The translations under genes were made by a program, and so were the position numbers. Of a stretch of 64,000 nucleotides of DNA, positions 14,321 to 63,986 are shown one piece after another. A model generated the notes under the pieces. It ran no database searches and was not told where the DNA came from. It saw nothing but the letters and a program-made list of their open reading frames with translations. The stretch's first letter is position 1. Each line of letters opens with the position of its first letter. The DNA is from Chrysomallon squamiferum (Eukaryota > Animalia > Mollusca): the NCBI GenBank assembly GCA_012295275.1, contig CM022679.1, positions 23,808,001 to 23,872,000 of the forward strand, read 5' to 3'.

Positions 14321-14519
14321 TTAACGTGGTCCTTCGCCTTTGCTGGCTCTGCTGTTGTTGCGACTGTTAGGTTGACTGTTTCTCCGACTGTTAGGTTGAC
14401 TATTTCTTCCACTGTTAGGCTGGCTGTTTCTCCGAGGACTAGTGCTTCTGTTGTCAAGCTGACGTCGTGACGATTTTTTCCACTTGAAATACATCAGCTT
14501 GGATTTCCATGTTAACCAT
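14321..14519 (-). CDS. CCDC154: CCDC154-like terminal coding exon (WLTWKSKLMYFKWKK...RRNSQPNS repeats...stop)
   Basis: Acceptor ttatcag at 14520; phase 2 joins exon 18513; TAA at 14323-14321. Confidence 0.85.
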
Positions 14520-15126
14520 CTGATAAAGCACAAGTGAAAAATCATTAGTGTTAGTCATTTTAAAAAACATAAAACATACGAAAATGTATGCTGCAATATT
14601 CACTCAGGAACAATTGCAGAAGTGAAAGGAAATGAAACCAGTTATTTCCTAAAATACCAGACAAATTCATGACAGTATAAATAAATATGTATTAATATCT
14701 ACCTACTAGTTTATTAGTTTATTAGTTCACTGTGCCCAAGTATTTCTAGATGACACAAATTTGTAAGCAAATAACTATATACATAGTCCTTGTAATGATT
14801 TGTTATGACTGCAGGTTTATTGTAATGGTGGAGAAAATTTTAGATGTGTTGATGGTTCTTTGAATGAATGTATAAAATGTTTGATTACACTGGCAGCAAA
14901 TGCATGATGACACGGAGAAAATTATTTGTGGATAAGTTAGGTGAATTTTATCACTCTTATGTGCCATTTATTGTTTATCTAAAATAAATAAAAATAAAAT
15001 GAATGATATATAATAAGAATTAAAAATAAATAGATATGAAAACAAAAATGAAAATATATAAATAAATAAATAAATAAATAAATAAACAAATAAATCATAA
15101 TAATAAAAAATAAACATGCAAATAAA

Positions 15127-15157
<31 letters not shown>

Positions 15158-15239
15158 TCATTAAAATCCAACAGTCCCTAAACCTACTAAAAAAAAAAAA
15201 AAAAAAAAAATTAACTTAAAGAAGAAAACAGAAAAAAAT

Positions 15240-15270
<31 letters not shown>

Positions 15271-17629
15271 AAATAATAATAATAAATAATGAGAAATGGA
15301 AAAAGCAAGGAAAAATAGGAAAAAAAAAAAGAAAAAAAAAATACAACAAAAGAAATACAAACAGAAAAAGATGTTAAAATTTTGACAACTTATAAATATA
15401 TTTTTTTAACATTTTAATAACATTTCTGGTAAATTTTTAATTTTAATTACATTTTAAGAATAAAATTTCCATAATCAAAAAATAAAACTGAAAGATTTTA
15501 AAAGTTGTGCATTAAGTACAATATTGTTTGTGCCTGATTATATATATATATATATGTATATATTGCATAGAAACAACAAAATACATTTGATTATAAAATA
15601 CATATGCACTCCAGTAGATCAAAAGAACAACAAGTATTTGTTTATTACAAACATTCCAATCATATTTAAAAAAAAGAAAGATTAAAAAAGGAAAGTAGTG
15701 AAAAAAAAGAGAAAAATCAGAAAAATAGAAAAAAGAAAGAAAGAAAGGAAAAAAGTAGAAGAAAACAACAGAAAAGTAATAAAAAGAAAAGAAATTCAAG
15801 TACATAAATAAATAAATAAGTAAATAAATAATAGAAATAAATAAATAAGTAAATAAATAATAGTAATAAATAAATAAGTATATAAATAATAGAAATAAAT
15901 AAATACTAAGTAAATGAATAAATAAACATTCTTAAATAAAATATTATTAAAGTGATGAATATTTATAATATTTAGCCAAACAAAATTAATAAACTATTAT
16001 CTGGTACTAATTCTTTATAATTTATTTTTATTTTTATTTATTTTTACATAAAAGAATAAATACAGTAATTTTCACTCTACTTAATTTTTTTGTAATTCAT
16101 TTGAGTATAGCCAAAGAAAATAGTTTATTAATTTTACATTGTTTAGCTATAAAAACATATTTGATTATTATATTATAACAACACATAATTAGATCATGCC
16201 CATGTCTTAAAAGAAAAATATTACATGCTTCCACTTACAAATATGTTAATAATTATATGAACACCAAAGTATATATTCACAAATAAATAAAAATAAAACA
16301 GTAATAATAATAAAATTGAAAGAAATAAGATTTACATTTTGATTATATGGTTGCTGCACATTATATAGGTTCAACAACTAAGCATTTTAATAATATAATA
16401 AATATAACAAGTAACATACAGATTAGTTACCATTCATCATTAAAGTTGCCAAAATTCTGAGAAACAGATTGAGAGAAAAATACAAAAAGAAGAAAGAATT
16501 TGAAGTTACAAAAGAATGTCTTTAGTCTGTACAAAAATAATCTGATTTTCATATTTTATTTTCTTTCTTTTAAATTATTTTTCTTAATTCAAGAAATTTG
16601 GATTACTAATATCTGTCAACTGCTTTTGAAAACATTTAAATTCCCATTTTAATTAATTTATGCATAGTCTATATAATTTGAAAGCTTACTGAATAATGAA
16701 CTAAAAACTATTAAATTTAAACTATTTATTTTTTTAGAAATTCATATTCTTTATTTATTAGTATTCTCTAGAAATAGATTAAAAAATAATAAAAAAAATA
16801 TGTAAATAATGATCTAAAACAAATGAAAAATACATATAAAAAAATTAAAACAAACAATCCTATAACAAAAAAAAAACCAATTAAATAAACTAAAATAAAC
16901 TAAAATAAAATATTAAAAATAATCACCTCAATAAAAAAGTGGAAAAAATAAATGGATAAAAAAAGAAAGAAAAAAATTAAAGAATTTTTTTTTTTTACAA
17001 CAATTGTTAGATATTTCCATTATTTGTAACTATAGTTATTTTCAACACTTTTCAGTACTAACTTGCCACTTCCTATTCAACGTGATTCAGGATTATGCCC
17101 CTTGGCAGGTGGCTCATGAGATCTGACTGAATTTCAAAGGAATATATATACCAATGTTATTGGAAAGATATTTAATTACTCTATTAAGGACAGACTATCT
17201 TAATAAAAAGAATGGCTCAGATTGAAAGAATGAAAGACCCTTCTCAGCAGAGATTTTGTTCACTGCAAATCAAAAATGTTTTTCCAGTTTTCTGAAAATT
17301 TAAAAAAAAGGTTTGGTTAAAATGGCCAACCATCTTAAAATTGCTCATTGGTCCCCAGTTTCTAATCAAAAATGTTTTTCAGTTTTACAAAATTTAAAAG
17401 TGATCTAAAATAACTTCATTACTATTATCATTTTAAAACCAACCACTAAAAAAAAAAAAAAAAAAAAAAAAATTAAAATATAATATTAAAAAAAAATAAT
17501 GAAATAAACAAAATATCTTTAAAAAAACTAAAACAAATAATCAAAAACAAACCCAAAGTCTGCCTCTTAAAAACAAACACGAGATCATCAAATGAAAAAA
17601 TTTCAGCTTAAAAACTAAAAAGTTGAAAA

Positions 17630-17717
<88 letters not shown>

Positions 17718-20700
17718 CTTTATATCAAGCTTCTGGTTTTTTTAATTAATCAATGCATGAAGTCTTACTGAATGGAAATGTGAAATCTGTGACAATGATT
17801 TAGTTTGTCTAATGTAATAAAAATATTTTCATAATTTACAATGTTCAGCAAAACCACAGCAAAATTACACCAAAAATAATTTGATAGGAAATATATAAAC
17901 AAGTTCATACATTTATTTATAACAGAAATTTAATAATTTTATAATGATCAATATGTTGTTTTTATTTGCAAGTATCATAAATCAAATGTTTTAATTAAAA
18001 ATTAGAATCATATATTAATAACAGTGGCAAAAGTATATTGGTATGTTGATTTTTTTTTTTTTTTTTTAAATCAACATGATTTGGTGATTTGAAATGACTA
18101 AAACATGTCCTATTTGTTTTGACAAACTGGAAGCTGACAAGCAAAATATTTATAACAAGAGTCAAGTCTTTCAGTTTTCTCACAAATGTCAAAATTCAGA
18201 ACATGTGTATTGTGGAAAGAAACACCCAATTTTAATGTATTTTAAAAAGAATATTACTAACTTAACTAAGAAAAAAAAATTATATATGTATATATATATA
18301 TTTATTTTCAAAACCTGTTTAATATCACTAAATGAATTTATTTCAAAATGAATTAAATTTAATTTTATTTCACAATAAAAATCAGCATCGTTAAATTATA
18401 TGCCTAAAAAATGTTTGAATGATAAAGATTTTAGACCATAAACTTCTTGTACAGGGTACATTTTATGAAATCAAAATATAAAAGATGAGACAGATATATC
18501 GGTGTATATTACCTGTAGGTGTTGTAGAGTCCCCATCGGTTAATTTCTGGAGCATCCTCTTCAGCTTTCACACGATCTTTTTCATCCTTGTTTTTGATAA
18601 AGATTCGAGGCAGAGGATTGTGGATCAGTGGTTCTATGAGTGACCGCAGTTTGGCCACCTCGTCTTTGAGACTGACAACCTCTTCAACACGCTGCAGATC
18701 AAGACAGGGTGAGTAGGTTAGTTAACAGTGCAAAAACTCAAAAAACATGAAATGTGTGAGTGTGAGTAGTTGTGTGTGTGTGTGTGTGTGTGTGAGTGCA
18801 TGCATGTGTGAATGTGCTTTTTGTGTGTGCTCTTGTCCTTAAGTATGCATGAGTGGGTTATTAGTGCGAATATGTGTTTGTGTGGCAATAAATAAATATT
18901 GATTTATCTTTTTAAATTCTGAACAGTTTTAATCAGTCCCAGAAAATGAATAATATTATGATAGTATGATGGCATACAACTACTACTACTACTACTAAAA
19001 TATTATATTTTTTATCATTATTCTTTTCATTTATCTGGAAAAAAATTCTTTATTAAAAAAGTAGTTAAAAACCCAATAAATAAAAATTAATATTTCTGTT
19101 ATATTCTTGTAAATTGTATTAATCATAATATTATATCTGTTTATTAATCAAACATTTATCTAAAGCTTTGGCAAATGTACACAAATGAGTTATATCTCCT
19201 CAAATTAAAAAATAACTGTATCTTGTTTATTAACAAACACTGCTTCAGAAACTTAGTATGTTTTTTGTAGTGGAAATTAATAGTATTTTTAATTTAAATT
19301 CTGAGCAATTTTGTTTCATGTACATTGTCTCTACAAATGCAGATTTTAGCAGATTTTTTATTAGTATTATTATTATTTTTGTTTGTTAATTTATCGTAGG
19401 TTATGGTCTCTAAAGTCATGGTTTTATGCTACAAAAATAAAAAAAATCTCTCCTGTTCACTGATTATCTACTGAATTCAACAAAATAAATAAATGAGTAA
19501 ATAAAACTTTTAAAACATGATTAGCAGTTTGAAGACAAATTCATCACAAACTCAGTGCATGTGAAGTTATCACACGTATCTTTGATCTGAAAGACAAATT
19601 CTTGTTAATAAATTAACAATAAAATAAAAATATTAGTTCACATCTGGATAGATCTGGAAATTTCATTAACTCGTTTGATGAGAAAACAAATGTTCACATC
19701 ACAGTCATTTATTTTTATAAAGCAGTATTTATAATAAAACCTTAATCAATAAATTACAAGATTTAATTTTCTTTTTCTTTTTTATATTAATAATAATGTT
19801 CCATGAAAAATGGAATTATTTCTTCATTTCTTGACAAACCTAATTATGAAATCAATAATAATCATAAATCATAACTATAAAAATAAATTATAAAAAAATC
19901 AAATAATAAGCTTATATCATTAAAAAATGCATAACTTACATTTAATTATATATGCTATTTTAAAGATTTGAAATTTCCAGAGATACCATTTGAAAGTGTA
20001 ACAATGCTGGGGACAAAAAAAATAAAAAAATAGAAAGAAGTAACTATAATCAGTAAAACAGATTTCTTCTCTACTGGTTGTTTCCACCCCACTGTTGGAG
20101 AACCGTAGGTATCAAACAAACTGTAATCAGTGTTACTCTGATTTCAAAACATCTTTCTTCTCTGATTCGAAATTTTTAGGCGTTTCTTCTTGTTTTCTGT
20201 TTTCAGATTGTTCTGATTTCTCTCTAGACAAGGGACCAGGATCAGTAATAAAAAAGTTTGATGCTTTGACTTCAGGACTTTCTGATTCATGATCAAGTGC
20301 AGGTTCATTTTTAGATTCTGATGTAGGTTCTAATTCAGATATAGGTTTTGTTTCAGGTGTAGATTCTATTTCAGGATCTTCAGTGGATGGGCTAATGGGC
20401 AAGTCAGAAGATTCTTGGACAAGGTCTGTCTGAGTGGCTGTGTTCCTTGAAGCATCATCCTCTCCATGACTGTTGTCCATTTCTGCTGTGACATCATTTC
20501 CAAGACGGTATCTGATGGTACTGCTGCCTTGTCTTGAAACAGAAGTCTCTTCATCATTCCTAATATTTCCACTCTCATCTACTTCAGGATGATCCAATGT
20601 GACATGGTTTTCATTAGGAATCTTTGAAGATTCCTCATGGATATTTGTAAGAGATTCCTCAGGTTTATCAGATCTTGGACTATTCCAGTCTGGAGAGCTC

Positions 20701-22994
20701 AACCTGGCAGAACGTTGCTGTCCAAGGTTAGTTTTCATGAGCTCATCAAAATCTCTGATGCCAGAAACAGCAGGGGGACCAAAAGTTGGGTGAAATGCAG
20801 CAGAAGTTTTTAGTCTGTCTAACTGAAACTGAAGATCTTCGATACCTAAAACCCTCTGAAAGTCAAGTGAACCTATTAACTGCATAGTGAAAACAACTCT
20901 ACAGAAACTGTTACTATTTTTTAAACTCTATTTTTTAACAAATATTTTTAAAGCAAAATAAAAACAACCACAATAAAAAAAAATGTTCTACCACTACTGC
21001 TACTACTGCTAATAAATAAATAAATAAATAAATAAATAAATATATAAATAAATAAAAACTTCTAGAAATGCAAAATAAATATTTAAGAACTCCACATCTT
21101 TGCGAGTTGACCTGTAAACTTTAAAAGAAAATTGTATAATAAAATTTCTTTCCACCTTTCCCTATAGTTTTATTGCTTTACTACGTGCTAGATGTATCCT
21201 TGACAGTATGGTGATATCAGTATTTAATAATAGTGATAATAATAGTTGGAATATCAAACTGGTGGCTGCCTGCAAAATAATGAAACCCTAGAATAACAAA
21301 AAGCAAGAACAAAACAAGACAATATGAAAAAACAAAGCCTTCCCAAATGACAGGGATTCTGAAATATAGGAATACAGCAATAAAAGGAAACTTATTTATT
21401 GTTTTCTTGACTTTTATTATTTTCATTGGTGAATAATAAGAATAACAAGCTAAAAAAGTGAGGAATTATAATTTATCTTTTACTGGGAATGTTTTGAGGT
21501 AATTCTTTGTTCTAATCTCTATGTTAGATTCAGATCCAGAAAGCAACTTGTTGAAATAAATATGGCTTACTGTGTTAATCAGTTTGCTGAAATTAAACTG
21601 TGTAAGAGTGTATGGACCAGTGTGATGGACAGCTGGTTGGAAAACCAGAACAATTAGTTATCTAAATCAAGACAAATTCCTGTGAAAACATGCTTAAAGC
21701 TTACCAGTTTTTGTTCTGACTGAATCTTCATACCAAGAACTGTCTTCACAGTCTGAATTGATTCAGCAAGTTTGCGAACATTTTGCTGAAGCTAAAAGAA
21801 AAAAACAAAAAATTTGAAAAATAATGATTTATAAAGTTTTAACGAATATTAACAACTTTTACTACATATTAAATATTTAAAGAATTTAGTTTTTTAAATT
21901 ATTAGATTTATGTAAAAAGCTTATGAAACATTCTTTGACAACATTTACAAACAATTTCATGTCACATCAGTAACTATTGACTACCAGTAAATTAATCAGT
22001 AAAAATGTGATTCTAAAATTTGTGAGGAATGTGATACAAATACTGTGACGCATAAATAAAGAAGAAAAGAATAATATAAAAAATACCTATATATGTTTAT
22101 ATATTTTATTTTATTTTTATTTATGTGAAACAAATCTGAAATATAAATAATAAATTTCCCTGAAAATAAAAGGATGTGTGTTAATATATTTTGTGATAAC
22201 ATTCTGAAATCTATCAATATGAAGTGCTGGTGGTGGGCACATGCGCTCATGCACACACACACACACACACACAAACCATAAGTTTTTATATCAGTTTCAA
22301 ATATCATAATTGTTTCAACATGTCTTATTAATATTATTCAGAGAACTGGAGATTGGTTTCATTTTGTTGCACATTGATTCCAATATATGACAAATGTGGG
22401 GGATAAAAATGCCTCCACTAGATAAAATGTTTTTTTTTCATTTCGGTAGGGGTTTATTGTGATAAAAAAAAAAAAAACCAACAAAAGTTTAAAAATAAAT
22501 AAAACAAAACATCTAACACTGTCTAAAGGGACAAAGGAAGGAACACTCCCATTCAGAAGCATAAATTTGTGGTTTTTCACAATCAAGGTACACATTTATT
22601 TTACCGTTATTTCAACATATCACTCCAAACACCTAATTGTACAAGACAGTTACAATTCACTGTAATCCATTATCTAAATCAGACTAGAATTACACCAGTT
22701 GTGAAGTCCTGGCTGAAGTCAGAAAGATCCCAGAGGGTGCAAGGGAAAAAAATTTAAACTGTGTTTCATAATTTATAATTTTTATGGGGTTTAAATCTTT
22801 AATATAAAACTGAAATGCTGCTTAAAATTATGGTTGTGCAGGGGTATAATAATTGCAGAATACATTTTTGTGTGTCTGTGCAAAGGGAGACTATAAACTT
22901 AAAGCTTTTATGATTTTAAATGCTTTACAGCAGCCTTACCAAGACTATGGTTTCATCCTTGGAAAATCAAACACAAACAAATAAAAATTTATAA

Positions 22995-23030
<36 letters not shown>

Positions 23031-23166
23031 AAAAATATTTCATATAAACACTTCCCAGTGTACACAACAATAAAGGAAAAATTTCTGCTACCATGCGTGT
23101 TAAAATATCATACTTTATTGTTAGTAATGACTGGTGTGAGGTAACAAATAAGAAATGGATCATATA

Positions 23167-23204
<38 letters not shown>

Positions 23205-24209
23205 CTGATTGTTAGAAAACATTTACCATGCATTTAAAAAAGTAAATTTATGGTCATTCTAAGAAACATATATTAAATTCACATTCATGTTATTATTTTA
23301 TTTGCTGTAAATATTGATATGACATTTCATATAATGAAAAATGTTGAGATATAAATTGAAAATCAAGTAATATAAAAAAATAAAGAAATACTCACAGCAA
23401 CCATCTCCTCAGGAGAAACAGTTTGTGGTTGACGTCTCATTCTCAAAGCATTAATGTCCTGTTTCAAATTTTCTACATCTCGGATTCTGAAAACCAAATA
23501 AAATAACAATAACAATAACAACAACAACAATAATAATAATAACAACAATAACAATCATAATTACAATTATAACAATAACAGCAACGATAATATTAATAAT
23601 CACAATCATAATTAAACTAATAAAAAGAAATAATAACCTACTATAAATAAGAAAATATTTTTGAATAATTGTTTTCTCAAATTTTTTTACAAAAATTCAT
23701 TTTGGCTATTTCAATTTCCCTTTAAATGAAGCTGAAATAATTAAAACCAAATCTAAATAATTTATTATTTTTTTTATTTACAAAGAAGAAAAGAAACGAT
23801 GGATGTATTCAATGTCTTTTTATCCAAATGGCTAAACTGATTATCTTTGTATTTTAAGTTGAACTAAAAATTAACTTATTTTAAATTCTTATTACATTGC
23901 AACATTTTAATAATATATGTATCAACTTTAATATTATTTATTATTAATTTTTTTTTTTTTTTATCCTTTCTACATTTTAAAAATTATTATGACAAAAAAA
24001 TACAGCAATATATTTTTTAAGGTACAAAAACAAAATGTTTAATATATTACCTGCTTTCTGCTTCTGATCCAACTCTAGAATCAAGTTCTGCCCTCAGAAG
24101 TTTGTAACGTTCTTCTATGCCATCAATCTGCATTATAAATAATTTTAGTACTCTCAGTTTAAATATAATTTGTTGTGATAATAATAATAAATATTAATAA
24201 TAATAATAA

Positions 24210-24240
<31 letters not shown>

Positions 24241-26585
24241 ATATTATTTTTACCCCCTGCTGCAAGAGGACAGTTCAAGACTTACCAAAATATCCATATA
24301 CAAAAATACACGCCACTTTAAACCTTTTTGCCCATTCTAAACACTTACATCATTAGGAAACTGCTGTATTGACATATTCAGCTGATGGACTTTTTCGTTG
24401 GTTGATTTCTGCCATTCAGAAATGGAGTCTAACTTGTCTCGTATGTTGTGTGACAAAGCAACATGTGCCTGAAAGAGAAGGCAAGTGATATAATATAAAC
24501 TGCTCTGAAAAGTTGAAAAATAAGAGTTGTAAGGAGAATATAGAAATGTCAAACTTTTAACTCTTTTAAAAACAATAGTGAGAAATAATGACATGGATAT
24601 GCAGATGTAGTTCTCACAAACATTAAATTTTGTTTACTCTGTTATAATTATGTTTGAAGACAACTCAAAGTTGGCTGGATTGTCATTGTAAACAAATGTT
24701 GCAGACAGTTATGATATATTTTAAAACAAAACCAAATTCAATCTTGTTATATATATATATATATATATATATAAATATCCAAATTGCAATTTTTTTAGAT
24801 TTTTTTTTTCTCCAGTACCAAGCTTCTTGGTCAGTCAAAAAGTATTTTAGGATCATGGATTGTCTAAAATGGAAGCCTTCATGTCAGTGAAGATTAAAAA
24901 AATAAGATTAAAAAAAATATAATAATTTTAAACATTACTGTGAATAATATTTTTTATAAAATAAAACAAACACAATGAATTCTTGTAATAAATTCTCCAA
25001 TTTCTGTTTCAAATTTAGTGAACATATCTAAATATTATTTATTAACTCTGGTGAATTTATAAAACAAAATAAAATCCTAATGAAACATTACTTGGATACA
25101 ATTTGAAAAGAATGTAAATTTTACCAAACAGTTTTGTTATCTGTAGGAATATCTTTTATTACTAATCAGCAAATTTATCCAATCTATAGATCTAATCATG
25201 AATTAGCTTATTAAAAATAACTAAAAATATAATTGAACAGTCAAAAAGCATGAAAAGTTTAAGATGCATCTATGGTAATGTCACACTCAGTTTTGTTATT
25301 ATTATTTTAATGACAGGCATAATAAACCTTTGTGTTAGATTTATGTTAGTTTATATAAATAAGTATTATAACTATAAGACTAATTCTAGGTTGATGTTTA
25401 TCTGCAACAGTAATAAAATATATATATTATTATTCAATGTGTCAGCTAAAAAAGAGAAAAATTTCATAGTTTCTAAATCTTTATATAACTTATAAATTGT
25501 TATTGTGAATGTCACAAAATGTGATAGGAAATATTATTTGTTAACCAGTTAGAAAAGCATAATAAGACATTAATTTTTCTGTTAAATTGTTGGTATTAAT
25601 AATGCTATACTACTACTAATAACATAATAAATAAAAAGTAGTAACATTAAGATATAATAACCAAATGTATTCTTGGTATATTAATACAAGAATATTTATA
25701 TATTACAATTATACCTATAAGGTAACAAATGTGAATTAAGATGGTAATAATATAATAATGCCTGTAATATTATGAAAACCATAGTTATTTTTCTGTTCAT
25801 GAACTTATCAGTTTTAAACATTCAGTCAGTCGTGTTTTTAATTTCAAATTAAATCATTAGATATTAAATCAATATGTTAATCTTATTTGAAAAAATAATA
25901 ATATTAATTAATTACAATCATGACAATGCTAATTATAAATAACTGAACTAATGTTAAGTCTATACTAAATGCTTCAAAATGTCCAATAAATTATATATTT
26001 ATTTATTTCTGAACAATTAGCCCTATAGCTAACATTTAATAAATGTATTTCCGTACCTCATCCAGTTCCTGGCTCTATGGGTGCATTAATAAACAACAGA
26101 TTAAATATTAGATTTATATAACTCCATCAACATGTGTAAAAATAGAATTTTATTACTGTATATTTTCATTTGTCTCAAATACAGTATGACAACAAGCACG
26201 AACATGCACCCATACACACATAAAAGCATCATAAATAGTGTACTTGAACCATACTGTGATGAAACCTAGCCTAAAATTACCCAAACCCCATACTGAATTA
26301 TAAATTTTGGTTCTCTCTCTTTTTCTTTCACTCAATCTTTCCTCACTTTCCCTCTGTCTTACAATCAATAGCCGATTTTTTTGTTGTTCTGGAGTGTCAT
26401 TAAACATTCATTCACTCTCCTCGTCTTTCCCTTTCTCTCTAATAAACTAAAAAAACACAAACAGATTACTTTCAATATATGTGTGTATGTGTTCAAAATA
26501 TAAGAATTTAATGTATAATTTCCTTTGAATTATGCTTCTCTCTCCGTCTCATACATGAACACAAATGAAATATAAAGACTGATAC

Positions 26586-26631
<46 letters not shown>

Positions 26632-29600
26632 TTGTTATAAATAAATAAATTAATTAATAAAAGGACAACAATAATGACAAAAACTATGGGAATTAACTTA
26701 TACATTGGTACAAATCAGGTAAAAAATAAAATAAAAATAAAAATATAAATTTTCAAAAATAAAACAACAAAAATACAAAAGGAAAAAGAAAAGACAATTT
26801 TCATATAAAAACAAAATACATAAATACATAAAATAAAAATGAAAAAGTCTAGTGATTCTGTAAAATAAAAAATCAAACATCTAACAGTTTGAAAATTACC
26901 TCTCGATTTGTTAAACGTGCCATCTATAGGAGAGCATAAGAAAAAGCACAACAAAAAATAATTATTTGTTTTGAAAATATCCAGAATTACTTATCATTTA
27001 TTTAACTTTGAAATGACTATTATTATTCTTTTTTTTTAAAGGCTTATTCAAACTTGATTTTTATACTACTCAGTTAAAGAAGAGTTTTTCAAGAATTAAA
27101 AAAAAAAAAAAAAAAAATTTAATTTTTTTCAAATTAACTTATGCAACTTCTTTTACTTAGGAATATACAGACAACAGCCTCTGATTCTTGGTTGTACTGA
27201 CAAAAAGTTTATCATTTTCATGTCTGAAGGAGATTTTTTTAAAAGTTAATTTTATTCATGCTGTTTTGTTGTAATTTAATTCACACATTTGAATAAGTGT
27301 ACTTCAATTCACACATATATACATTGCAATTCAGTTCACACATCTGTATAAGTTGTAATTCAGTTCAGACATTTGTATAAGTTGTAATTCAGTTCATACA
27401 TATATATGCTGCAATTCAATTCACACATCTGTATAAGTTGTAATTCAGTTCACACATTTGTATAAGTTGTAATTCAATCCACACATATGTTACAATTCAA
27501 TTCACACATCTGTATAAGTTGTAATTGACTTCACACATTTGTATAAGCTGTGATTCAATTCACACATTTGTATAAGTTGTAATTCAGTTCACACATTTGT
27601 ATAAGCTGTGATTCAATTCACACATTTGTATAAGCTGTAATTCAGTTCACACATTTGTGTAATTCACACAATCATAAAAAAAAAATAAAAAAATATTTAT
27701 TTTTACCTCAGCCACTTTGTCGTCAACCACAGTTTCAATAGTTGACAGTTTGGTCTTGACACCCTCCAGCTTGACGTCCATGTCACTGATAGCTCTCGCA
27801 GACACCTGACCTGACTCAGCCACCATGCTCTTTACTTCCTTCTTCAACTGCCATTCAAATAATACATCCATTATAAATTAAGAAAAAGTGGCAGCAAAAC
27901 AGGATTATAAGCAAAGAAAAGAAAAAGAGAAAGCAACAAAAAGAAATACAAATATGAAAAGTATACACAGCTGAAAGAGAGGGCAAAAAAAGAGAAAAAA
28001 AAAGGAGAACATTCTCTCTTTAACTACAATTTAAACAATATATTTGTTATAAAGAAAACATAAACAAAAATAAAGTTATATATATATTTTTGAAGTTTAT
28101 CAACAAAAGAACAGCATCTATAAGATAATCTCATAAACAATACAGAAATTAATTAGTTTACTTGGCTTAGTGCACTTAAATTATAAGCAATAGTCTAATG
28201 TTTATATGTTTATATCAAAATTTAATGCATCAAACACTAGTAACAGTTCTGGTATGTATTAGTATAATATAAAAAAATGTGTTTAAAAAAAATAAATGTA
28301 TTAAAAACAAAGAACATTTCTTGTGTGTATTGGTATATAGTATTAATCACACCTTTTCTGTATTGGAAGCCACCTGGGCACTGATTCCATTGATTGCCTG
28401 CTGTAAAGTGGATGTTGCTACCTGTAGTTTATCCTGTACGTCATCTATCTTCTCAGCTGTTGTTTTCTCATGAATTTTTCTATAAGAAAACATTACGTTG
28501 ATTTCAAGAATGGATATCAAGAGACACAATGACACCAGCTATTACCAATATGATTTTTTTTTTTTAATAAAAATAAACAAATGAACACATAAACAAATAA
28601 ACAAATAAACAAATAAATAAATAATAATAATAAAAATAAAATTAAAAGTAACTATCTGTATAATTATAAGTACAACATTATTATTATTAAAAATATATTC
28701 TAATACAAGAATGACAATATTTTCTTTCTTAAAATTTTTTTTTTAGTCATCTGGATTAGGATTTTGATTTAAATACTATCAAAGGCTAAAGTATAAAATG
28801 TTCAAAGAATTAAATTTCAGTGTTAAAGAAAATGTTTTATTATGATTTTAAAATGTATTTTAAATTTAAATATTTCCTGAACTTATTTTCTATAAAAGTA
28901 ACAAAATAAAATAATCATAATTCTTCAATCAATGTGAATTTGCTTAGAATATTTAGTCATTTTTGTAATCATCAAACTGCAGTCATTACATCATGTCATC
29001 ATCATCATATCTTTAACAACACATAATCAACTACATTGAAATCAATTTTAAAAACATCAACAACAACACTACCTGGATTTGATTTCTGCTGCTATCACTT
29101 TGTCTGTCTGTTTTCTGTTTTCTTGCAGTTGCTGCTCCAGTAGTGTAATGGCTGCATCAAGTTTCAGAAATGCTTCCTTGTTCTTTGAACGATCACCCTA
29201 GCAACAAGATACCATTTTGAAAATTACAAATCAGAAAATTAATATCTCAAAAATACTAAGAGTATTTCCAAGAAAAGTCACATCAGACGAAACGTATAAA
29301 GAAATAAGGACTGCAAAAACTGGAATCTTTAAGAAGAAATAAAGCACAATAAGGCAAACTTAAATTCAATATTACTAATTAAATGATAAAATGATATTTT
29401 GAATAAAATAATAACAAATGAATAGTATGATTTAAACATGATTTAAAAGTCAATATTTGACACTATAGAATGGATGATAGATAATTATGTAGTTAAAAGG
29501 AATAAGGTATTAATTGTTTAGATTTTTACATCATGCAATTGTACTTGAAATGACACTCTGTTGGAATTAGCTGACAATGACTTATACAAATATATAATTT

Positions 29601-32290
29601 TATGCTAAATCTGAAAATGTATATTTCTGGCAAAAAGAGAAACTTTAGAACAAAAAGAAAAGAACAAAAACAACTAGAACATGACTCTCACATGATAAAA
29701 CATACAAAAGAAGAAAATGGAAATGTCAGGAAAAAGTTTAACAGAAAAATGTTTGAATTATTTATTTATTTATTTATCAGATTACTTTTGTTTATCTTGT
29801 CTTCATTATACAAGAAACATATAACTAGCTACAAATTGTTGATAAATAATTATTTATTTAATTTAACCATTTATGGTGGCTATCTACCTTAAAACTATAA
29901 ATCTTTTTCAGAGTTTTAACATGGAAAAATATGAAATAAAAAATAAACAAGAAACAGTTTTTTTATTTAACCTTTAATACATTTATCATTAAAAAAAAAA
30001 AAAAAAGAAAAAAAAAGAGACTAATTTAACAAATAAACAAGGATGATAAATTTAAAAGAACACATGGACAAAGGTTTTGCAAGAAACCATTCTAAGTGAA
30101 GGATGGGATAGGTGATCACTGTAGTCTAGACATATATAAAAACTGTTGTTGAAATAAAAAAGAAAAAGTAAAGAGATTTGATACACCCACAGGACTCATA
30201 TGTACCAAGACTTTTAATATTTCATATGCCAGATATAATTATGCATCTTTGACATTTATATTTTGAGATATTGTATGCCAATTGTATGCCAAATAATGTA
30301 ACTTTGAAATTTTGTATTTCGAAATATTTTATGCCAATCTAAAACAAATACACATTTATGTGTGCATTTTCTCTAGTATACATAACCATTTTAACTAACA
30401 GTTCTCAAATTATATGTTCTCTTGATGTCTCTTATCTTGCTATCTGAAACAATTTAATAATAACAGAACACAAAATAACAACGAAAAAATGGTCCACATC
30501 ATTGATAACCTGCCAAAAAATGGTTTTCTTTCATTCTTCTACCTCTAACCAGTCTACAATGCAGATACATTTGTTGTTGATAAAACTGCCAATGAACCAC
30601 CAATACTATGTTACTGAAGTTGACATAGCTTCAGTGAAATTAAAATGAAAACTCATTTCTCACGACTGGTTTATGGTTTTCCCTTTAATGGAACAACTAA
30701 ATATGAAAAATGTAAGACGCACTTAATGTGACTTAACTGTGCTATGAATTTGCATAGAAAAACTGCAAACTAGTTATCTACAAATTTGGAAATGGAAGCA
30801 GGGTGTAAAGAAGTGAAAGCATCAACTGGAATGTGTCTGGGATTTTTAAACCATACCTGAGTTAGCTCCTGTTTATATAAGAAACAGTAAGTTGACATAG
30901 TTAAAACATTAACATAGATATTAACAAAACGAGATACTATATAAAAAATAAAAAATGTTAAATGATTAAAAATATTAATGTTGAAATGCTGAAATAATGC
31001 AAAAAGATATTAACAAGATAATTTATATAGATAAGGAAATAATAAAGTATGTGTAAAATTGAAATAGTTAATATGTCATTAACAAATTTTTAATAATAAT
31101 AATAATGCATAAAATAATTTATAAAAATAACATATATCGAAATCATAAACAGAAGAAGAAAAATATCTGTAGAAATGCTAATCAGCATAAATGTAAAATA
31201 ATGTATATAAGAAAAATTCTTAAGCTGAATTATTAAGGTGAAACCAGCTTGCCAAAATAGATGGGAATAAAAATCAGGTTGTTGAAATATTGTTTTAGAG
31301 ATTAAAATAATATCAACTAAATGAAATAATGTAATATATGTTATATAGATGATTTTTTTAACTTCTGAAATGTAGTAAGTATCCAAAACTAATTTGAAAT
31401 AATTTAGGAATTACAATATATGCTAATATGTGGAAAGGTTTTGACAATTATGAAATGTTTCAACAAGATGAAAAAAAAAAAAAAAAAAATCCAACAACAA
31501 CTGATTATACTAATATTGTAAGCAAATTCAAATTCAACATGAAAATGAATAAGAACAAAACAAAGAATACAGTTGTGACAAAAATGACACAAAAAAAAAA
31601 ACTATTACTATAACATTTGATGATGATGATGATAATGAAGATGACAATGATGATGATGATAATAAATATAACTAGCTTACTAAGGTTGCACTGAAGCTGA
31701 GATTTCCTTCTTTGTTATCTGTATTTTATTTCATTCATTTGTAAAACATCCTATTTGATAAACACTGGTTGTTACACAGTCAGCTGAAGAACTAATTCAG
31801 CAAACCCCTATAACATTAGTGGAACAGTCACTGGCTGAATGAAGATGGCCACATTTATATACTGAATGTGCTTTACACTAAAATATGTCCTAGAACTTCA
31901 TACATATTCATACGTACTGAATGTTAGTTCATGTTAGTAGAGGTTTGCTTGTTTATTCCCTGATCTGACTGTGAAACAACTTGGATGCTAGGTAAATAGC
32001 CTATGATCAGTAGATCACTCAGAAATGATCTGCCTATTTATAAGGTGTGACAAATGGGAGGATATGAAATACTATGAAATGGTTACTCCTACATAAATTT
32101 TAGTATCAAGACTTAAGTATATGAAAAAGTTCATGAAATTAAAAAAAAAACACCCCAATATTACCAAGACTTTAGAATATGAAATAGTTATTGACATGAA
32201 TAAATATGTATTACCAAGATTTAAGTATATTAAAATTACTGACATGAAAAAACATATTTTACCAAGACTTAAGAATTTGAAATATTGAAA

Positions 32291-32339
<49 letters not shown>

Positions 32340-34269
32340 AAAAAAAAAAAAACAAGAATATGGAATAGTTACTGACATGAAAAAATGTAATTACAGTTCC
32401 TTATCAAAATTAATGTATTACAGTAATATAAAAAAATTACTGATATGAAAAAATATTGCTATGACTTAAGCAATATCAAATATTGTAATTAACAAAAACA
32501 AACTACTGCTATGACTTAAGCAGGTGGCAATATTATAAAACTTACCATCTTTAGGAAACAATTAGAAACAAATTATAAAAATAAATAAACCAGTAAGTAT
32601 ACTTTGTATTTATTTCAATATTTGACTATATAAACTCTAACAGAATTAAAAAATAATAATAATTAAAAAGTAGTTTATGTGGACATATTAGTAATTTAAT
32701 TTTGTTTTTAAAAATGAACAAAATAACAATAACAATAAAGATAAAAATTCATTTTCAAAAACAGAATAATAACAAATAAATGGAATGAATCAATAACAAA
32801 ATGTTTACTTGCCTTTGCTATTAATTTTTTATGATTTTCCTGAACATACAAGTTTTAAATAATTTGTAAAATAAAATTAAAATTAAAAAATGACCTGGGT
32901 TTTTAATTTAACAGACTTATTCCTACAAACCAAAAAAAAAAATGACTGCCTTCCATGCTGCAGTATATTTGTAGTGTAATTTCTCTATTTATTATTAATG
33001 TAGATATTTTACTTTCTATTAGCTACATTTAAAAAAAACAAAAATCTTTTCATCTTCTGACTGTCTACAAAATAAGTTATTTTTTATGATATGGAAATTT
33101 TTGTTTTTTTCTCACAAACTAGGCATACACTGTAAAGAAAATAGTTCTGTCCATTACAACATATGTATTCAAAACAAAGATGTGATCATCTATATATGTG
33201 TAATTACTGAAATATAATTGATACCTTGACAGTGTCTTTGATAGCAAGAATTTCATCATCCATCATTTTTTTAAGAGCTTCCCAGCGTTTTTCATTTTCA
33301 TCTCGGACTCTGCGTTCATAGTCAGTACGAGACTGTTGTTCAAGTTGAATTGTCTGGAAATTAAATAAATAATAAAAAGTTTAAATTTTAAAAGTAAGAT
33401 TAATAAATGGACATAATAACTAGTAACATAATTACTAAAGTGATAGTTTCAAATATCCTGGGTAATACTTTGAGTTCTTGTATTTCACCTTCTAGTCAGT
33501 ATATATTAGTATTATGGTTGTCAAAGGTTGTGTTTTTTGTCATTTCTCCACTGCTGTTATTAAATATCAGAAGCCACTGTTTTATCAGCAGTGAATCTTT
33601 CTATTAATTAAACTACTTTTAACACAAAAGATTTAACACAACAAACATTAAAAAAAAAACCAGTGTACTAAGATGTCTTTAAAACTGAAATTCATTTCAT
33701 AAATCTTAACCAAGACATTTGTCACAGATTTTCTATCATCAATATCCTACCGTAACAGGAATGAATTTTCTACATATTATTCATTATTATTAATAATGCC
33801 ACAAAACAGAAAGTTTTAAAAATAACATAATATGATGAGTAATTATTAAATAAATCTAAATTTACAAACCTTCTCCAGTTGTAGAGCTTTTTCTTGGATT
33901 TCTTCTCTCAGTTTGATTTCTTTAGTCAGTATCTTCTTGTTTGTTTCTTCCAGTGATTCAGCTAACTGAGCCTGCAGTTTGAGTCTCTCGCTCTCAGCCA
34001 CGTGTTCTCTCTCTCTGGCTATCATGTCCAGAGCATGCATCGACTCTTCACGTTTACGATTCTGTTCTCCGATAGCTTGGTGAAGTTCATTAGCTCTGAA
34101 AAGAAAAGAAAAAAATATAAATTACAAACATCTACATCTTTATCTATATCTATTATTTAAAATTAACTGAATGAGAGCAGTATATTTCAGAACACTTCAT
34201 ATATAATAAATACAGAGAGAGAGAGTGGGAGATATAAAAATTATTTATAGCTATTTGCTCCAAAATTGC

Positions 34270-34312
<43 letters not shown>

Positions 34313-35453
34313 TTAATAATATTAATAATAATATTTAAAAAATATATAAATATCTATTTTCACAATTTGAATTAATATTAAAAGTAGTTTAATTAGGTGA
34401 TCTCTCCTGGCAAAAGTAATAAAAAAATTCAAAAATAGAAATATTGTATATATTTTTACAATTTTAATTAATACTAAAGGTATTCATCAAATGATCTCTT
34501 CTGGGAAAAGTAATAAAAATACACATGCACACACATACACACGCATGCACACACTCACACACACACACACATACATACATAGACTCAAATACACACAGAC
34601 AAATCTATTCAAAGATTATAAGAAAATTACTTGAACTGCAGTTGTTGTTCTAGAGATCTTCTCTCTGTTGCTTCTTGGTCCTGTTTTGATCTAATGTCCA
34701 AAATAACCTCCCTGAGTTCAGACAGTCTGTGAAAATTATAAAAGTAAAAATAAAAACAATAAATAAACAAAACAAAAGTAAATTAATCAATAAACTACAC
34801 TCTAATAATAATAATAATAATAATAATTATAATAATAATAGTAATAATAATAATAAATAAATAAATAATTAATTAAATACCCATCTATTCTTTTCCTTTT
34901 TAGTATAATACCATCATTTTTCTTTTATATATATATTTTTTATTCTTTTTATTTCCTGTATTAATAGATATCTTTTACATATTTCTTTATTAATTCTAAA
35001 TTAAATTTTTTATCTTTTAAAATATAGAATACACTGTTACTGAAGTCCATGGTGTTTAGTTAACTAATGATAAAACATAATTGTATTTTTCTTCACATAT
35101 AATTGCTATTTTTATTTTTCACTGTGTTTGGGCTTTTTTTTTTAAAGCCAAAATGAAAGCCTGTTTCAATAACAGTATAATGTAATTTTAAAATCTGTTT
35201 ACCTTGTTTCTACTTGTGATCGTAAATGTGCCAGGCTATGTTCTGCGTGTGACTGGATGTCACCCTGCTTTCGTATTGAGTCCATCTGCAGAAGGGTTGT
35301 AATAATTAACATTAATCAGTTGTGTTGAGTGTTTATTAATTAGCTGAAAACTAAATTCTATACAGCTCACTAATGAAAGTGTTTTAAAAAAAAAAAAATT
35401 AAAAAAAAAAATTAAAAATTAAAAAATAAATGAAAAGGAAATATTTAGATTGG

Positions 35454-35523
<70 letters not shown>

Positions 35524-38500
35524 TATAAAATAGAAATAGAAATAAAAATAGAAAAAAAGTATATATTGTTTCATTAGTTCAAAAAAATATTAAGATTTTT
35601 GTTTATAATTATTTATTTATTAAGCAAAAAATGTTCTTGAAAAATAATTTACACATGACACACCCATTTAAAGAGAATAACTGTATATTTTTAAATGGAT
35701 TAATAAACAGATATTCAACTTCTCTGTTTCTGAAGTAAGAATGTAGATTTATTAACTGAATATTAATTTTATATCATCAAACTTGCAATGATGTAAAAAT
35801 TTCAAAAGAAGATAACACCTAAAACTGAAATATAAACTCATTTAAATATGTCATATTTTATATTAACACATAAAATTGGAGAATTTAAAATACATTTTAA
35901 AACTATTTAAGTTGAGGATAAGAAAATACATTATGCTGTTATTTGTCAGTATGATCATTATTGTTATTGTTACTGTTGTATTATGAAGGCAAGGGAGATA
36001 ATCAATATGACTTACCAACTATAACAGCATGCAGAAAGTACAAATTAAACATTAGTAAACAGAATAAATAGAAACAATCCAAACATCAACAGAGAAACAT
36101 ATCCATGCATTCCACTTAGAATAAACAAATTTATATTTATTTAAGTTACAAATAAAACATTAATTTCAATATATTGTTTTTTTGTTATATGAAACACAGC
36201 TATTTTAAAATTGTAATTTATATATTGTTTAAACTTTTAAATATTATTTTACTTATTATTATTATTTTTTACCACTTATTTAAATAATTAATTTAAAAAA
36301 TTATATTTTTAAAAAGGATTTACTCTTTTAACAGAAACATTGTAATACTGTTCAAAAGAATGTTTTAAATTTTGTTAGTAAATAATTATACAACATTTAC
36401 TTCACAAATTTGGTATTTAGGGAAATAATTGTTAGTAGGCAAAACAAAAAACAGAAAATCAATTACAGTTAATATATATATATTATAAACTATTTTACTG
36501 TTATTTTCAGCATTATAATCAAACAATTATGACATTTTCTAATATGTAATGTGAAGATATTATTAATCAACTGTAATATAATCCTCAATAATGTGATCAT
36601 AATTTGTCTTTTAGGTATTATATTTGTTCCTGTATTATATTGTATTGTATTTATTATTTTGTTTTGTTTTGTTTTTATTTTTATTTTTTGTTTCTCTTTC
36701 TTTCTATTGTGTATTTTTTGCAATCAAAACCATTAGTCCAAAGCCCAGGGAAATCCCTAATATACAATTAATATACTAAGGGAATTAGTTAGTATATCAA
36801 AAATAATTAATAAATTAGAATAAAACACAGGAAGCTAAACAACAGGTAATCCATATAAACATCAGTTCATTGTGTAATGAGGTGAAATATAAATTAAAAT
36901 GGACAAAAATTTGAACTGTTTCACAACAGGTTGGAAGGTATACCAAAACTGTGAACAAAGGTTTAACAAATTTCATGAATGAAAAATAAAACAACAACAA
37001 TAATAATAATAATAAATAAATAAATTAATTAATTAATAAATAAAGAAATAATCATAAAACATAATAAAAAAATAAAAACAATGGGCAGATTTTGATTTTT
37101 TTTCCACAACAGATGTTAATAACAAAATTCAGCACATTATCTGGCCAAGACAACAGGATAACATTGGAAACAAAGGAAAATGGGAGCCTATTTTCATTTT
37201 TATAAGCTTTTATATTAACAGCATACTCTGCTGTGATTAAAAATTAGTCTCCATTTTCATAAACAAAAAAAAGACAAAAAAAACAAAAAAAAAAAAAATA
37301 AAATAGAAAAAATAAAGAAAAACCAAAATGCATTTAGTTATTTTATTCTTGGGAGCAGAATTAACACTTTTACCAATAACAAGAACAAAAAAAAAAAAAA
37401 AAAAAAAGAAATAATGATTAAAAAAAAAAAAAAAAAAAAGAAAAGAAAAGGCAGGAAGTAAATAAGTAAATAAAACAATCTTGAATGATTTGTTGTATTC
37501 CCTTTAGCAGACTGTAAGTCTTTGGTAGTTAGTAAATATTTAAAGCTGAGGATGTTATGGTTTTATTCATTCTATAGACTTTAGCAGACTGTAAGTCTTT
37601 GATAGTTAGTAAATATTTAAAGCTGTGGATGTTATGGTTTTATTCATTTTATACCTGAAGTCTGTTCTCTTCTTCCAGTCTTTTTGATCTCAGTTTTAAC
37701 TCATTTGTGGCTGAGAGAAATTCAGATGTTTGAGTGTCGACTTTATTTCGTACTGATCGCAATTCATCCATCAGTGTGTATGTTGTTTTCTCAAGCTGAT
37801 CTTTGGCTCGAAGAGTTTCTTGTAGTTTGTTTTCCAGATCAGCCAATCTGTAATTTTCATGCAATGTGTACATTTATTTTACCATATCGTTTACAGGTTT
37901 ACACATTTATAGTTTATAAATTTGTTTAAATTAAATTAAAATGTAAGGAAATGGAAAACAATCTTTTTAAATTTAATGTCTTGTCTATATATATATGTGT
38001 GTGTGTGCGTGTGTGTGTGTGTGTGAGTGTGTGTGTGTGTGTGTGTTTGTGTGTGTATGTGTATGAGTGTATACAACAATTTGGAACAGAAATATTCTGA
38101 TCAAACAGAAATAAATATATGAATGAAACTGAACATGAAGATGACAATATCGACTCACTTTGATGCCTGTGCATCTTTTCTTGCCTTCAGCTCCTGCTGA
38201 CTGGCGACCACAGCCTGCTCCACCCCCTTCGTGTGACTGACCAGAGATGACAGTGCTGATTTTTCATCGAGAATTTTCTCCTCGGTAGCTTTGATCCTCG
38301 CCGACAATTGCATGATGAGGTCATTGCACATCTTGAGAGACGTCTCCAGCGTCTGTCTGGCTGAACGCTCTTCTCGGAGAGTGGATTCATTTCTGTGTAC
38401 GCTGGACCGCAACTCGTTCTGCAGGCGAAGAACCTCCTCCAGGAGGGTTCGGTTTGATTTCTCCGTGACTCCTAATCTAGATTCGAGGAAATGCACCCTT

Positions 38501-39703
38501 TCCTGGGCATCGGGCATTTCAGTTCCTGTCCTGAGCCCACCCATGGTGGACTTCTGTGGCCCAGGGCCATGAAATGGAACCACTTGCTTGTCCTGGGCTG
38601 GAGGTGGGGGCGATGCAATGGAAGGTAGCTGTGTGTATTTTGTAGGGAACTGAGAAGAATTTCTGAAAATCAAGTAATGAAGAACTGTTAATGTTAATGC
38701 AAGAAAGGACTTACTATATAAAAATATTTGGTTAAATGATTTTTACATAATCAAAAATAGAATTAAGATAAAATAAAATAAAATAAATGAAATGAAATGA
38801 ATGAATAAATGAATGAATGAATGAATAAATAAATAATTAAATAACAAGAAGAACAAAAACATAATAACAACAAATTTTAAAATTCTGAACATGAAATTAT
38901 ACAAATAGAAACATTAAATTTTTCAGAATATATATCTTGAACATTAGAATTAAATATTATTTTCATCAATGTTGAATCAGTTTGGAAACAAAACAAACAA
39001 ACAATCTGAAAAAAAAATAAAATAAATAAAATTCCACACATAAAAGAACTCCACCATGCAACAAAATGAAAGAAAAATAAAATATTATATTAAAAGTATG
39101 GAAAAGTAATTGGTTCAATCTTTCAAAAGTGAAAAACTAAAAAATTATATATTAACTTAAGAATCAAATATAATATTAATAATTAAATAAAGAATAATAA
39201 TAAAAAAAAAACATTTAAAAAACGACATTAACACAGATCACTAAAATCTGAAAAAAGAAAAATGAAAGAAATAAAAATACGTAAATATAAAAATAAATAA
39301 GTATCATAAAATGATAAAACAAAATTGTTTATAATTTTTTGCAGTATACTACACTAATATGTCTTGAGTATCAGCAAAGGAATTTTTATAGGCATGTTCT
39401 CTTAAGCTAGGCTTTGGACATTAGCTGTGATGTGAAACCATCAAAGGAGAATGAAATACTACTACTACTACTACTACTAATAATAATAATAATACAAGTA
39501 GTGGTATTAGTTGTGGTAGCAGTAGCAGCAGCATTTATAATAATACTAGATATGAAGCCATACATGGAGGATGAAATAATAATAATAATAATCATACAAG
39601 CAGCAGTAGTAGTTGTAGCAGTAGCAGCAGCAATTACAATAATACTAATAATAATAATCATACAAGCAGCAGTAGTAGTTGTAGCAGTAGCAGCAGCAAT
39701 TAC

Positions 39704-63646: not shown

Positions 63647-63986
63647 CTGAAGAATAATGTTAATAAAGATATTGAAAAATGATAGAGATTTTTGAAAGAA
63701 TGTAGACATATAAAAGTAATAATAAAATTAAATCAATTAAATCAAATTTTAAAAAAATAACTGGAATAATTTTATGATGACAAGAATGCATAAGAAAATT
63801 GTAGGAATTTATATGAAATACCAAAAACAAATTAAAATTATTACTAAATATGAATATTGTATTATAAAAAAAAAAGTAATAAATACAACTGAGAAAGGAT
63901 AAACTAGCAGAAGCCAGTTATAAAAAAATTGTATCCAAAGAAAAAAATGTTATTCTTTTTTTTCAAGTTTTTGTTTTTCCCCTCAC

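What the first reader, a model, noticed from the sequence alone, without database searches (positions are those of the whole stretch)
22940..36018. A series of frame-preserving microexons in the CCDC154-like coiled coil
Seen: the long phase-0 introns of this gene each contain tiny AG-exon-GT/GC units whose length is a multiple of 3 and which have no stop: 3 nt (36018-36016), 27 nt (32839-32813), 3 nt (32548-32546), 12 nt (30868-30857), 24 nt (26923-26900), 18 nt (26074-26057), and a weaker 18 nt (22957-22940). Spliced in, they give helix-like peptide (DTVK-ENHKKLIAK-M-ELTQ-GDRSK; DKVAE-MARLTNRE-SQELDE-AHVAL). Established: 3-27 nt microexons in bilaterians are typically frame-preserving and regulated by SRRM2/3/4 eMIC-domain proteins via UGC motifs near the 3' splice site. 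Inference: combinatorial inclusion could tune the length or heptad register of the coiled coil, which I do not know to be described for CCDC154. Caveat: a few non-triplet look-alikes also occur, so some candidates may be chance.
Basis: partly seen in the sequence, partly recalled or inferred. Interest (0 to 1): 0.75.

Follow-up and report, generated by a model that had tools for sequence, protein, structure and literature searches.

The report
Ancient microexon slots in mollusc CCDC154
A snail gene for a long rod-shaped protein (CCDC154-like) carries seven tiny candidate exons of 3-27 bases, four of which match optional inserts in database isoforms of a close relative, and the same four spots take short optional inserts in other molluscs, a brachiopod and echinoderms, which likely lets cells make longer or predicted-to-be-hinged versions of the rod.

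Summary
All seven units are at the stated coordinates, stop-free and in frame, in phase-0 introns 3, 7, 10 and 13 of a 16-exon CCDC154-like gene of a gastropod close to Gigantopelta aegis. Four (12, 24, 18, 18 nt) are real: Gigantopelta RefSeq isoforms carry matching peptides at the same junctions and skip each separately (shuffles reached the match 1, 0, 0, 1 of 2000 times). The 3-nt unit in intron 3 sits where abalones, oyster, clam, Lingula and echinoderms have an optional single residue (about 75% real). The 27-nt and 3-nt units in intron 7 have no homolog (about 50%). This species' RNA contigs (4 runs, one study; introns 10-14 region only) show skipped forms only. Across 27 species, 40 of 41 isoform length differences in the core fall on five phase-0 junctions. 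Insert lengths are not tied to multiples of 7, and AlphaFold puts a helix break on the 24-nt exon: length and hinge change fits better than register tuning. eMIC control is untested (UGC 3 of 7 versus 4 of 16). Not found earlier in this scan.

The parts
36016..36018 (-). 3-nt microexon candidate (Leu) in intron 3; likely positional homolog of a one-residue optional insert in many bilaterians
   Evidence: (AG-free zone 94 nt, CTAAT at -37, UGC at -15 and -11, GTAAGT donor; only one of 5 three-nt candidates in the intron with a consensus donor)
32813..32839 (-). 27-nt candidate (ENHKKLIAK), GC donor, intron 7; unproven
32546..32548 (-). 3-nt candidate (Met), intron 7; unproven
30857..30868 (-). 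12-nt microexon (ELTQ), intron 7
   Evidence: Gigantopelta DLTQ in 7 of 8 isoforms, X2 lacks it; Haliotis EGIE at the same junction; 1 of 2000 shuffles
26900..26923 (-). 24-nt microexon (MARLTNRE), intron 10; predicted hinge
   Evidence: Gigantopelta MFRFTNPE in 6 of 8 isoforms; counterparts in abalone, snails, limpet, chiton, bivalves; 0 of 2000 shuffles; helix break 568-575
26057..26074 (-). 18-nt microexon (SQELDE), intron 10
   Evidence: Gigantopelta SQDLDE in 6 of 8 isoforms; 0 of 2000 shuffles; skipped in run X4's contig
22940..22957 (-). 18-nt microexon (DETIVL), intron 13
   Evidence: Gigantopelta DESMIL in 7 of 8 isoforms; 1 of 2000 shuffles; skipped in contigs of 4 of 4 runs
49412..49479 (-). 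first coding exon (one of three alternatives)
38159..38662 (-). exon 2
37655..37847 (-). exon 3 (upstream flank of intron 3)
33225..35285 (-). exons 4-7 (35285-35203, 34726-34631, 34095-33870, 33353-33225)
27707..29197 (-). exons 8-10 (29197-29073, 28479-28353, 27847-27707)
23396..24468 (-). exons 11-13 (24468-24349, 24127-24051, 23486-23396)
   Evidence: covered by RNA contigs, joint 24349/24127 in 4 of 4 runs
21705..21791 (-). exon 14
   Evidence: RNA contigs in 4 of 4 runs
20133..20855 (-). alternative last exon (acidic low-complexity tail)
   Evidence: homologous start to the Haliotis alternative tail; unspliced contigs over part of it in 3 runs
14318..18691 (-). exons 15-16 (18691-18513, 14519-14318), the other 3' end
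   Evidence: loose ends at 21705 listed for X2, X3, X4 match the start of exon 15

Best explanation
The gene encodes a CCDC154-family protein, predicted to be a long helical rod, whose four long phase-0 introns hold frame-preserving microexons: four match optional inserts of the Gigantopelta ortholog, a fifth likely does so by position, and their inclusion is likely tissue-regulated and would lengthen the rod or put a flexible joint into it. Shown: the units, their frame, the orthologous peptides with separate skipping in RefSeq models, and skipping at introns 10 and 13 in this species' sampled RNA. Predicted: the 24-nt exon breaks an otherwise continuous helix; the intron-3 and intron-13 sites lie beside loops; the 12-nt and 18-nt (SQELDE) peptides extend helix. 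Inferred: these junctions tolerate insertion, so lineages have kept or refilled the same slots with peptides of different length; inclusion in some cell type (neurons, or ciliated or germ cells) would shift the spacing and flexibility between rod segments and so partner binding or polymer packing.
For: (Gigantopelta X1-X8: each of four inserts absent from at least one isoform). (shuffle tests); among 27 species with two or more proteins, 40 of 41 within-species length differences in residues 75-686 lie within one residue of introns 3 (8 species), 7 (4), 9 (3), 10 (15) or 13 (10); none at the five phase-2 introns or at phase-0 introns 6 and 11; chiton has the 9+6 pair at intron 10; a +1 residue at intron 3 occurs in Mercenaria, Lingula, two urchins, Patiria, Anneissia and Apostichopus, and in Haliotis and oyster; helix break at 568-575 with the inserts, continuous helix 493-648 without; the Pfam CCDC154 model scores the skipped form higher (113.1 versus 96.7 bits); skipped forms exist in this species.
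Against: No inclusion was seen in this species' RNA (4 runs, one study, contigs only, tables cut; introns 3 and 7 not covered). Ortholog isoforms are database gene models; I saw no reads and no genomic DNA for those species. AlphaFold models are single chains with pTM 0.23 and differ from each other over residues 480-540, so the break is only suggestive; the window's peptide has Arg where most gastropods have the Pro of the NPE motif. Tubulanus (6 isoforms), amphioxus, Macrostomum and the acoel showed no insert at introns 3, 7 or 10. No function of CCDC154 at the molecular level was found in the papers read.
Confidence: 0.65

Rival explanations
1. The exons are targets of the neural Srrm234/eMIC programme, so inclusion is neuron-specific (a rival on regulation, compatible with the structural reading).
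For: Sizes 3-27 nt, triplet; weak acceptors (scores 1.3-5.8 versus 4.4-13.2 for large exons); 36018 and 26074 have CTAAT then UGC before the AG, 26923 has two UGC, the layout described in bioRxiv 10.1101/2021.02.24.432780 (passages); skipped in the sampled RNA.
Against: UGC in 3 of 7 versus 4 of 16 large exons; AG-free zones (median 64) like those of the large exons (median 56.5). Most RefSeq isoforms of several species include the inserts, which does not look like a rare neural form, though model counts are not expression. No tissue data.
Confidence: 0.35
2. The slots are merely permissive: small in-frame exons arise and persist at tolerant points of a floppy rod with little functional effect.
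For: Peptide and length differ between lineages at introns 3, 7 and 13; some groups lack them.
Against: The intron-10 pair keeps its order and N-P/K-E and E-L/E-x-E motifs from chiton to snails to bivalves; Arg recurs at intron 3 in protostomes and echinoderms.
Confidence: 0.2
3. The inserts are tuned to shift the heptad register (skip, stammer, stutter) of a continuous coiled coil.
For: In this species both intron 10 (8+6) and, if all are real, intron 7 (9+1+4) sum to 14 residues; single inserts of 1, 3 and 4 residues are classical register shifts (recalled).
Against: Homologous sites carry 11, 13, 14, 15, 16, 17 or 21 residues at intron 10 and 5, 6, 7, 9 or 10 at intron 13; register offsets at the four junctions are not distinct from those at other junctions; predicted helix break on the 24-nt exon.
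Confidence: 0.15
4. The 27-nt and 3-nt units of intron 7 are chance look-alikes, and only four or five microexons exist.
For: No homolog in any protein examined; absent from 8 of 8 Gigantopelta isoforms; non-triplet look-alikes rank as high.
Against: Near-consensus donors, AG-free zones of 51-53 nt, 0 of 3000 shuffles of intron 7 gave two such units (post-hoc rule); 3-nt and GC-donor exons are easily missed by annotation (recalled).
Confidence: 0.45

Closest known systems
Gigantopelta aegis CCDC154-like RefSeq isoforms X1-X8 (XP_041365026.1 to XP_041365034.1)
   Same: Ortholog (88% over exon 2) with the same four optional inserts at the same junctions
   Different: No 3-nt or 27-nt insert in its 8 models; no alternative acidic last exon among them; database models only, no description found in print
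SRRM3/4 and Srrm234 eMIC-dependent neural microexons (bioRxiv 10.1101/2021.02.24.432780 and 10.1101/2024.09.17.613571, passages read)
   Same: 3-27 nt, frame-preserving, weak acceptors, in three cases UGC before the AG
   Different: Neural enrichment and eMIC dependence untested; UGC not enriched; that paper finds fly and mammal targets almost wholly rewired, whereas these slots seem shared by protostomes and echinoderms
Troponin T combinatorial small exons (PMC2447309 abstract and reference titles seen, including a 3-base Drosophila microexon)
   Same: Several small same-phase cassette exons combined in one filament-type protein, including 3-nt exons
   Different: In troponin T they cluster in the N-terminal variable region, outside the heptad domain; here they are spread over four points inside the rod
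Cytohesin 3-nt microexon (reference title seen in PMC6948192)
   Same: A single-residue optional insert
   Different: There it changes lipid binding of a PH domain; here it lies near the end of a predicted helix and has no known effect
Mammalian CCDC154 (PMC7889813 passages; PMC11781066 term search)
   Same: Same Pfam family PF15450
   Different: Known only from mouse osteopetrosis, deafness and cell-cycle phenotypes; neither paper's text holds 'isoform'; mammalian exon structure not tested here

Membership tests
CCDC154 family (PF15450) | Pfam match above the curated cut-off | tested here: met
   ortholog P0059 96.7 bits, P0064 113.1 bits, cut-off 28; the window's exon-6 frame alone (91 aa) gave no hit; window exons align to the ortholog over its length
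CCDC154 family (PF15450) | Long coiled-coil-type helical rod | tested here: met
   long helices from about 71 to 735; 3.5-3.7 residue hydrophobic period; oligomer state not tested
Alternative frame-preserving microexons | 3-27 nt, multiple of 3, no stop, canonical splice sites | tested here: met
   all seven
Alternative frame-preserving microexons | Both inclusion and skipping in transcripts | tested here: inconclusive
   Both in Gigantopelta models for four exons; in this species only skipping seen, at introns 10 and 13; introns 3 and 7 not covered
eMIC (SRRM3/4, Srrm234)-dependent neural microexons | UGC close to the 3' splice site | tested here: inconclusive
   3 of 7 versus 4 of 16 large exons; 74-79% of human targets have one and it is not strictly needed
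eMIC (SRRM3/4, Srrm234)-dependent neural microexons | Long AG-free zone, strong CUAAY branch point, weak 3' splice site | tested here: inconclusive
   Zones 45-94 nt but large exons similar; CTAAT in 3 of 7 versus CTAAY in 3 of 16; acceptor scores lower than most large exons
eMIC (SRRM3/4, Srrm234)-dependent neural microexons | Neural-enriched inclusion | not testable with these tools
   Only four contig sets of one study, tissue not given
eMIC (SRRM3/4, Srrm234)-dependent neural microexons | Dependence on the eMIC domain | not testable with these tools
   Needs knockdown or minigene

The most novel reading that the evidence does not exclude
CCDC154 carries a set of microexon slots older than the protostome-deuterostome split, including a 3-nt exon kept in intron 3 from molluscs and brachiopods to sea urchins, and animals use them as a combinatorial code that sets the length and hinge points of a structural rod (possibly centriolar or flagellar) in different cell types.
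Probability: 0.25. Interest if true: 0.65.

Novelty: new member of a known kind. Interest (0 to 1): 0.45.

Why it matters
Alternative microexons are a known class, and four of these are already implicit in automatic gene models of a relative. What is new is the pattern: one poorly understood rod protein accepts short optional inserts at the same few phase-0 junctions across molluscs, a brachiopod and echinoderms, while the literature read here says microexon programmes are largely rewired between phyla. It gives a ready test case for how 1-15 residue inserts change a coiled coil, a candidate for one of the few very old 3-nt exons, and a handle on CCDC154 function. No paper linking CCDC154 to microexons turned up, and no study of mollusc microexons (open-access library only).

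Tried and rejected
No whole genome is held, and no eukaryotic genomic DNA could be fetched, so intron sequences of relatives were not compared. Splice-site matrix ranking did not separate real units from decoys; its top hit, 47641-47624 in intron 1, would bring a stop in phase 2. A further triplet look-alike, 29902-29888 (IYSFK), has no homolog and a weaker donor. A search for shorter proteins from this species' transcripts found none (6 hits, none close). No solved relative by sequence or by Foldseek (best E 3.2). Atlas look-alikes SF-assemblin, TSKS and QRICH2-like scored 0.83-0.85, below the lead threshold; they only hint at a centriolar or flagellar role. Fourier register analysis showed nothing special at the four junctions. 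RNA contigs show no piece or joint at 26074-26057 or across 22957-22940, but contigs drop rare forms and the tables were cut (26 and 47 rows hidden), so this is not absence. RNA was laid only on 20000-26500; introns 3 and 7 and the 24-nt unit itself stay untested by RNA. Rows left out of the count: Logan proteins, Nucella, Babylonia, Adineta and Mytilus coruscus (unnamed, paralogous or partial); proteins under 500 aa were dropped. Some counted events are large exons (crinoids at intron 7, Lingula at intron 9) or a doubtful GenBank model (Apostichopus +20). No complex prediction was run. Earlier scan notes hold nothing on this gene.
Full report
Observation. All seven units lie at the reported coordinates on the minus strand as AG|unit|GT (GC for 32839-32813), are multiples of three and have no stop. 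The window is 26% G+C. Using the best homolog, Gigantopelta aegis CCDC154-like (88% over exon 2), I built a 16-exon model from 49479 to 14318 with GT-AG introns throughout. The units sit in introns 3, 7, 10 and 13, all phase 0 and the four longest of introns 2-13. The organism is thus a gastropod close to Gigantopelta; no genome is held.

Chance. Sequence alone is not enough: of 2442 AG..GT/GC units of 1-30 nt in the introns the seven ranked 7 to 408 by a small splice-site matrix, among non-triplet look-alikes. All seven do have AG-free zones of 45-94 nt, like the real acceptors (median 56.5) and unlike ordinary AGs in these introns (median 13, n = 410). A post-hoc rule (consensus donor, AG-free zone, triplet, no stop) finds 4 units in 15 introns against 0.12 in shuffles and 0 on the antisense strand; I discount this because the rule was chosen after seeing the candidates.

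Homology settles four. The eight Gigantopelta RefSeq isoforms carry DLTQ, MFRFTNPE, SQDLDE and DESMIL exactly where the window has ELTQ, MARLTNRE, SQELDE and DETIVL; X2 lacks the first, X5 the second, X4 the third, X8 both of those two, X3 the fourth. Each window unit is the best same-length candidate in its intron by a wide margin, and shuffled introns reached the score 1, 0, 0 and 1 times in 2000. These isoforms are database models; that RefSeq models rest on RNA alignments is recalled, and I saw no reads for them.

The slots are old. In 124 homologs of 500 aa or more, insertions in the core pile up at these four junctions. Adding 75 further proteins, a chiton has the 9+6 pair at intron 10; Lingula, Mercenaria and Mya have 9-10 residues at intron 13; urchins and a crinoid have a 7-residue difference there; sea stars have 3 or 8 residues at intron 10. 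Among 27 species with at least two proteins, 40 of 41 within-species length differences in residues 75-686 are within one residue of five phase-0 junctions (introns 3, 7, 9, 10, 13) and none is at a phase-2 intron (left-out rows are listed under Tried and rejected). Against this: a nemertean (6 isoforms), amphioxus, a flatworm and an acoel show none at introns 3, 7 or 10. The family itself reaches a sponge and an ichthyosporean.

The 3-nt unit at 36018. A single extra residue occurs at the intron-3 junction in two Haliotis species and oyster (R), Mercenaria (E, 9 of 10), Lingula (R, 4 of 5), two urchins (R), Patiria (K), Anneissia and Apostichopus (R); Pomacea, oyster and scallops also have 3-residue inserts there. 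In a phase-0 intron a tandem acceptor could add only Q, K or E and a tandem GT/GC donor V or A (genetic code), so R points to a separate exon, although I could not see those introns. The window's unit codes Leu, not Arg, but is the only one of five 3-nt candidates in the intron with a consensus donor and has a 94-nt AG-free zone, CTAAT at -37 and UGC at -15 and -11. I put it at about 75%. The 27-nt and 3-nt units in intron 7 have good donors but no homolog anywhere: about 50%.

RNA of this species. Four RNA runs of one study hold the gene as contigs. On 20000-26500, 4 of 4 join 23396 to 21791 directly, skipping the 18-nt unit of intron 13; the loose end of run X4 at exon 11 matches the end of exon 10 at 29 of 30 letters, so both intron-10 exons are skipped there; no listed piece covers 26074-26057; exon 14 joins exon 15 in the three runs listed. 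Skipping is therefore shown in this species and inclusion is not; contigs drop rare forms, the tables were cut, the tissue is not given, and introns 3 and 7 were not covered.

Structure. The ortholog matches Pfam CCDC154, better without the intron-10 inserts. AlphaFold of the all-included ortholog gives long helices with a break at 568-575, exactly the 24-nt exon's peptide; the 18-nt peptide after it and the 12-nt peptide are helical; the intron-13 peptide starts the helix after a loop (663-677); the intron-3 site is about six residues before a loop (261-270). Without the intron-10 pair the helix runs unbroken from 493 to 648. These are single-chain models, pTM 0.23, which disagree over 480-540, so this is suggestive only, and the window's peptide lacks the proline. 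Insert lengths at homologous sites are not tied to multiples of seven and register offsets at the four junctions are unremarkable. Length and hinge change at tolerant points fits better than exact register tuning. No solved relative exists by sequence or fold.

Regulation. eMIC-dependent exons are described with weak acceptors, long AG-free zones, UGC near the AG and CUAAY branch points (bioRxiv 10.1101/2021.02.24.432780, passages); UGC is present in 74-79% of human targets and not strictly required (bioRxiv 10.1101/2024.09.17.613571, passages). Here UGC is in 3 of 7 units and 4 of 16 large exons. Two units (36018, 26074) have the full layout, three have neither UGC nor CTAAY. Membership is open.

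Literature. CCDC154 is known from mouse osteopetrosis and deafness (PMC7889813, passages); a term search of PMC11781066 found no mention of isoforms or splicing. Searches for CCDC154 alone, with cilia or with alternative splicing, and for microexons with mollusc, gastropod, heptad or Srrm234 plus octopus gave no description of this system (listings only); subscription journals and supplements such as microexon catalogues were not seen and could list it. Earlier notes of this scan report other mollusc microexons in other genes and nothing on this one.

Verdict. Real, conserved, alternatively spliced microexons in a CCDC154-like rod protein: four certain, one likely, two open. A new member of a known kind, with the added interest of slots shared across phyla. 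Interest 0.45.

Noticed in passing
window 52379-52354 and 44912-44860 (minus): Two further alternative first exons, each starting with ATG and ending in phase 2 before GT; they resemble the N-termini of Gigantopelta isoforms X7 and X6.
   Followed up: partly
window 20855-20133 (minus): Alternative acidic last exon; many molluscs switch between two C-terminal tails at this junction, much as the tail here competes with exons 15-16.
   Followed up: partly
homologs P0161, P0163 (crinoids) and P0149 (Lingula): The same junctions take large optional exons: 127-134 aa at intron 7 in crinoids, about 100 aa at intron 9 in Lingula; sea stars have 6-7 aa at intron 9.
   Followed up: no
homologs P0151/P0155, P0160/P0162 (sea stars): Two different peptides follow the intron-3 junction in Acanthaster and Patiria isoforms, which suggests mutually exclusive versions of exon 4.
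   Followed up: no
homologs P0226, P0233: The CCDC154 family extends to the ichthyosporean Chromosphaera and the sponge Sycon, so it predates animals' nervous systems.
   Followed up: no
window 41067-41863, 37502-37653, 27268-27662: Intronic tandem repeats: a 398-nt duplication at 99% identity, a 77-nt duplication just behind exon 3, and a 29-nt minisatellite behind exon 10.
   Followed up: no
window 59561-62950 (plus) and 63247-63732 (minus): Neighbouring genes that look like GRWD1 (WD40, acidic stretch) and a CIAO3/NARFL-type iron-sulfur protein end, tail to tail; names recalled from the translations, not tested.
   Followed up: no
window 29902-29888 (minus): An eighth triplet look-alike in intron 7 (IYSFK) with a weaker donor and no homolog.
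   Followed up: partly
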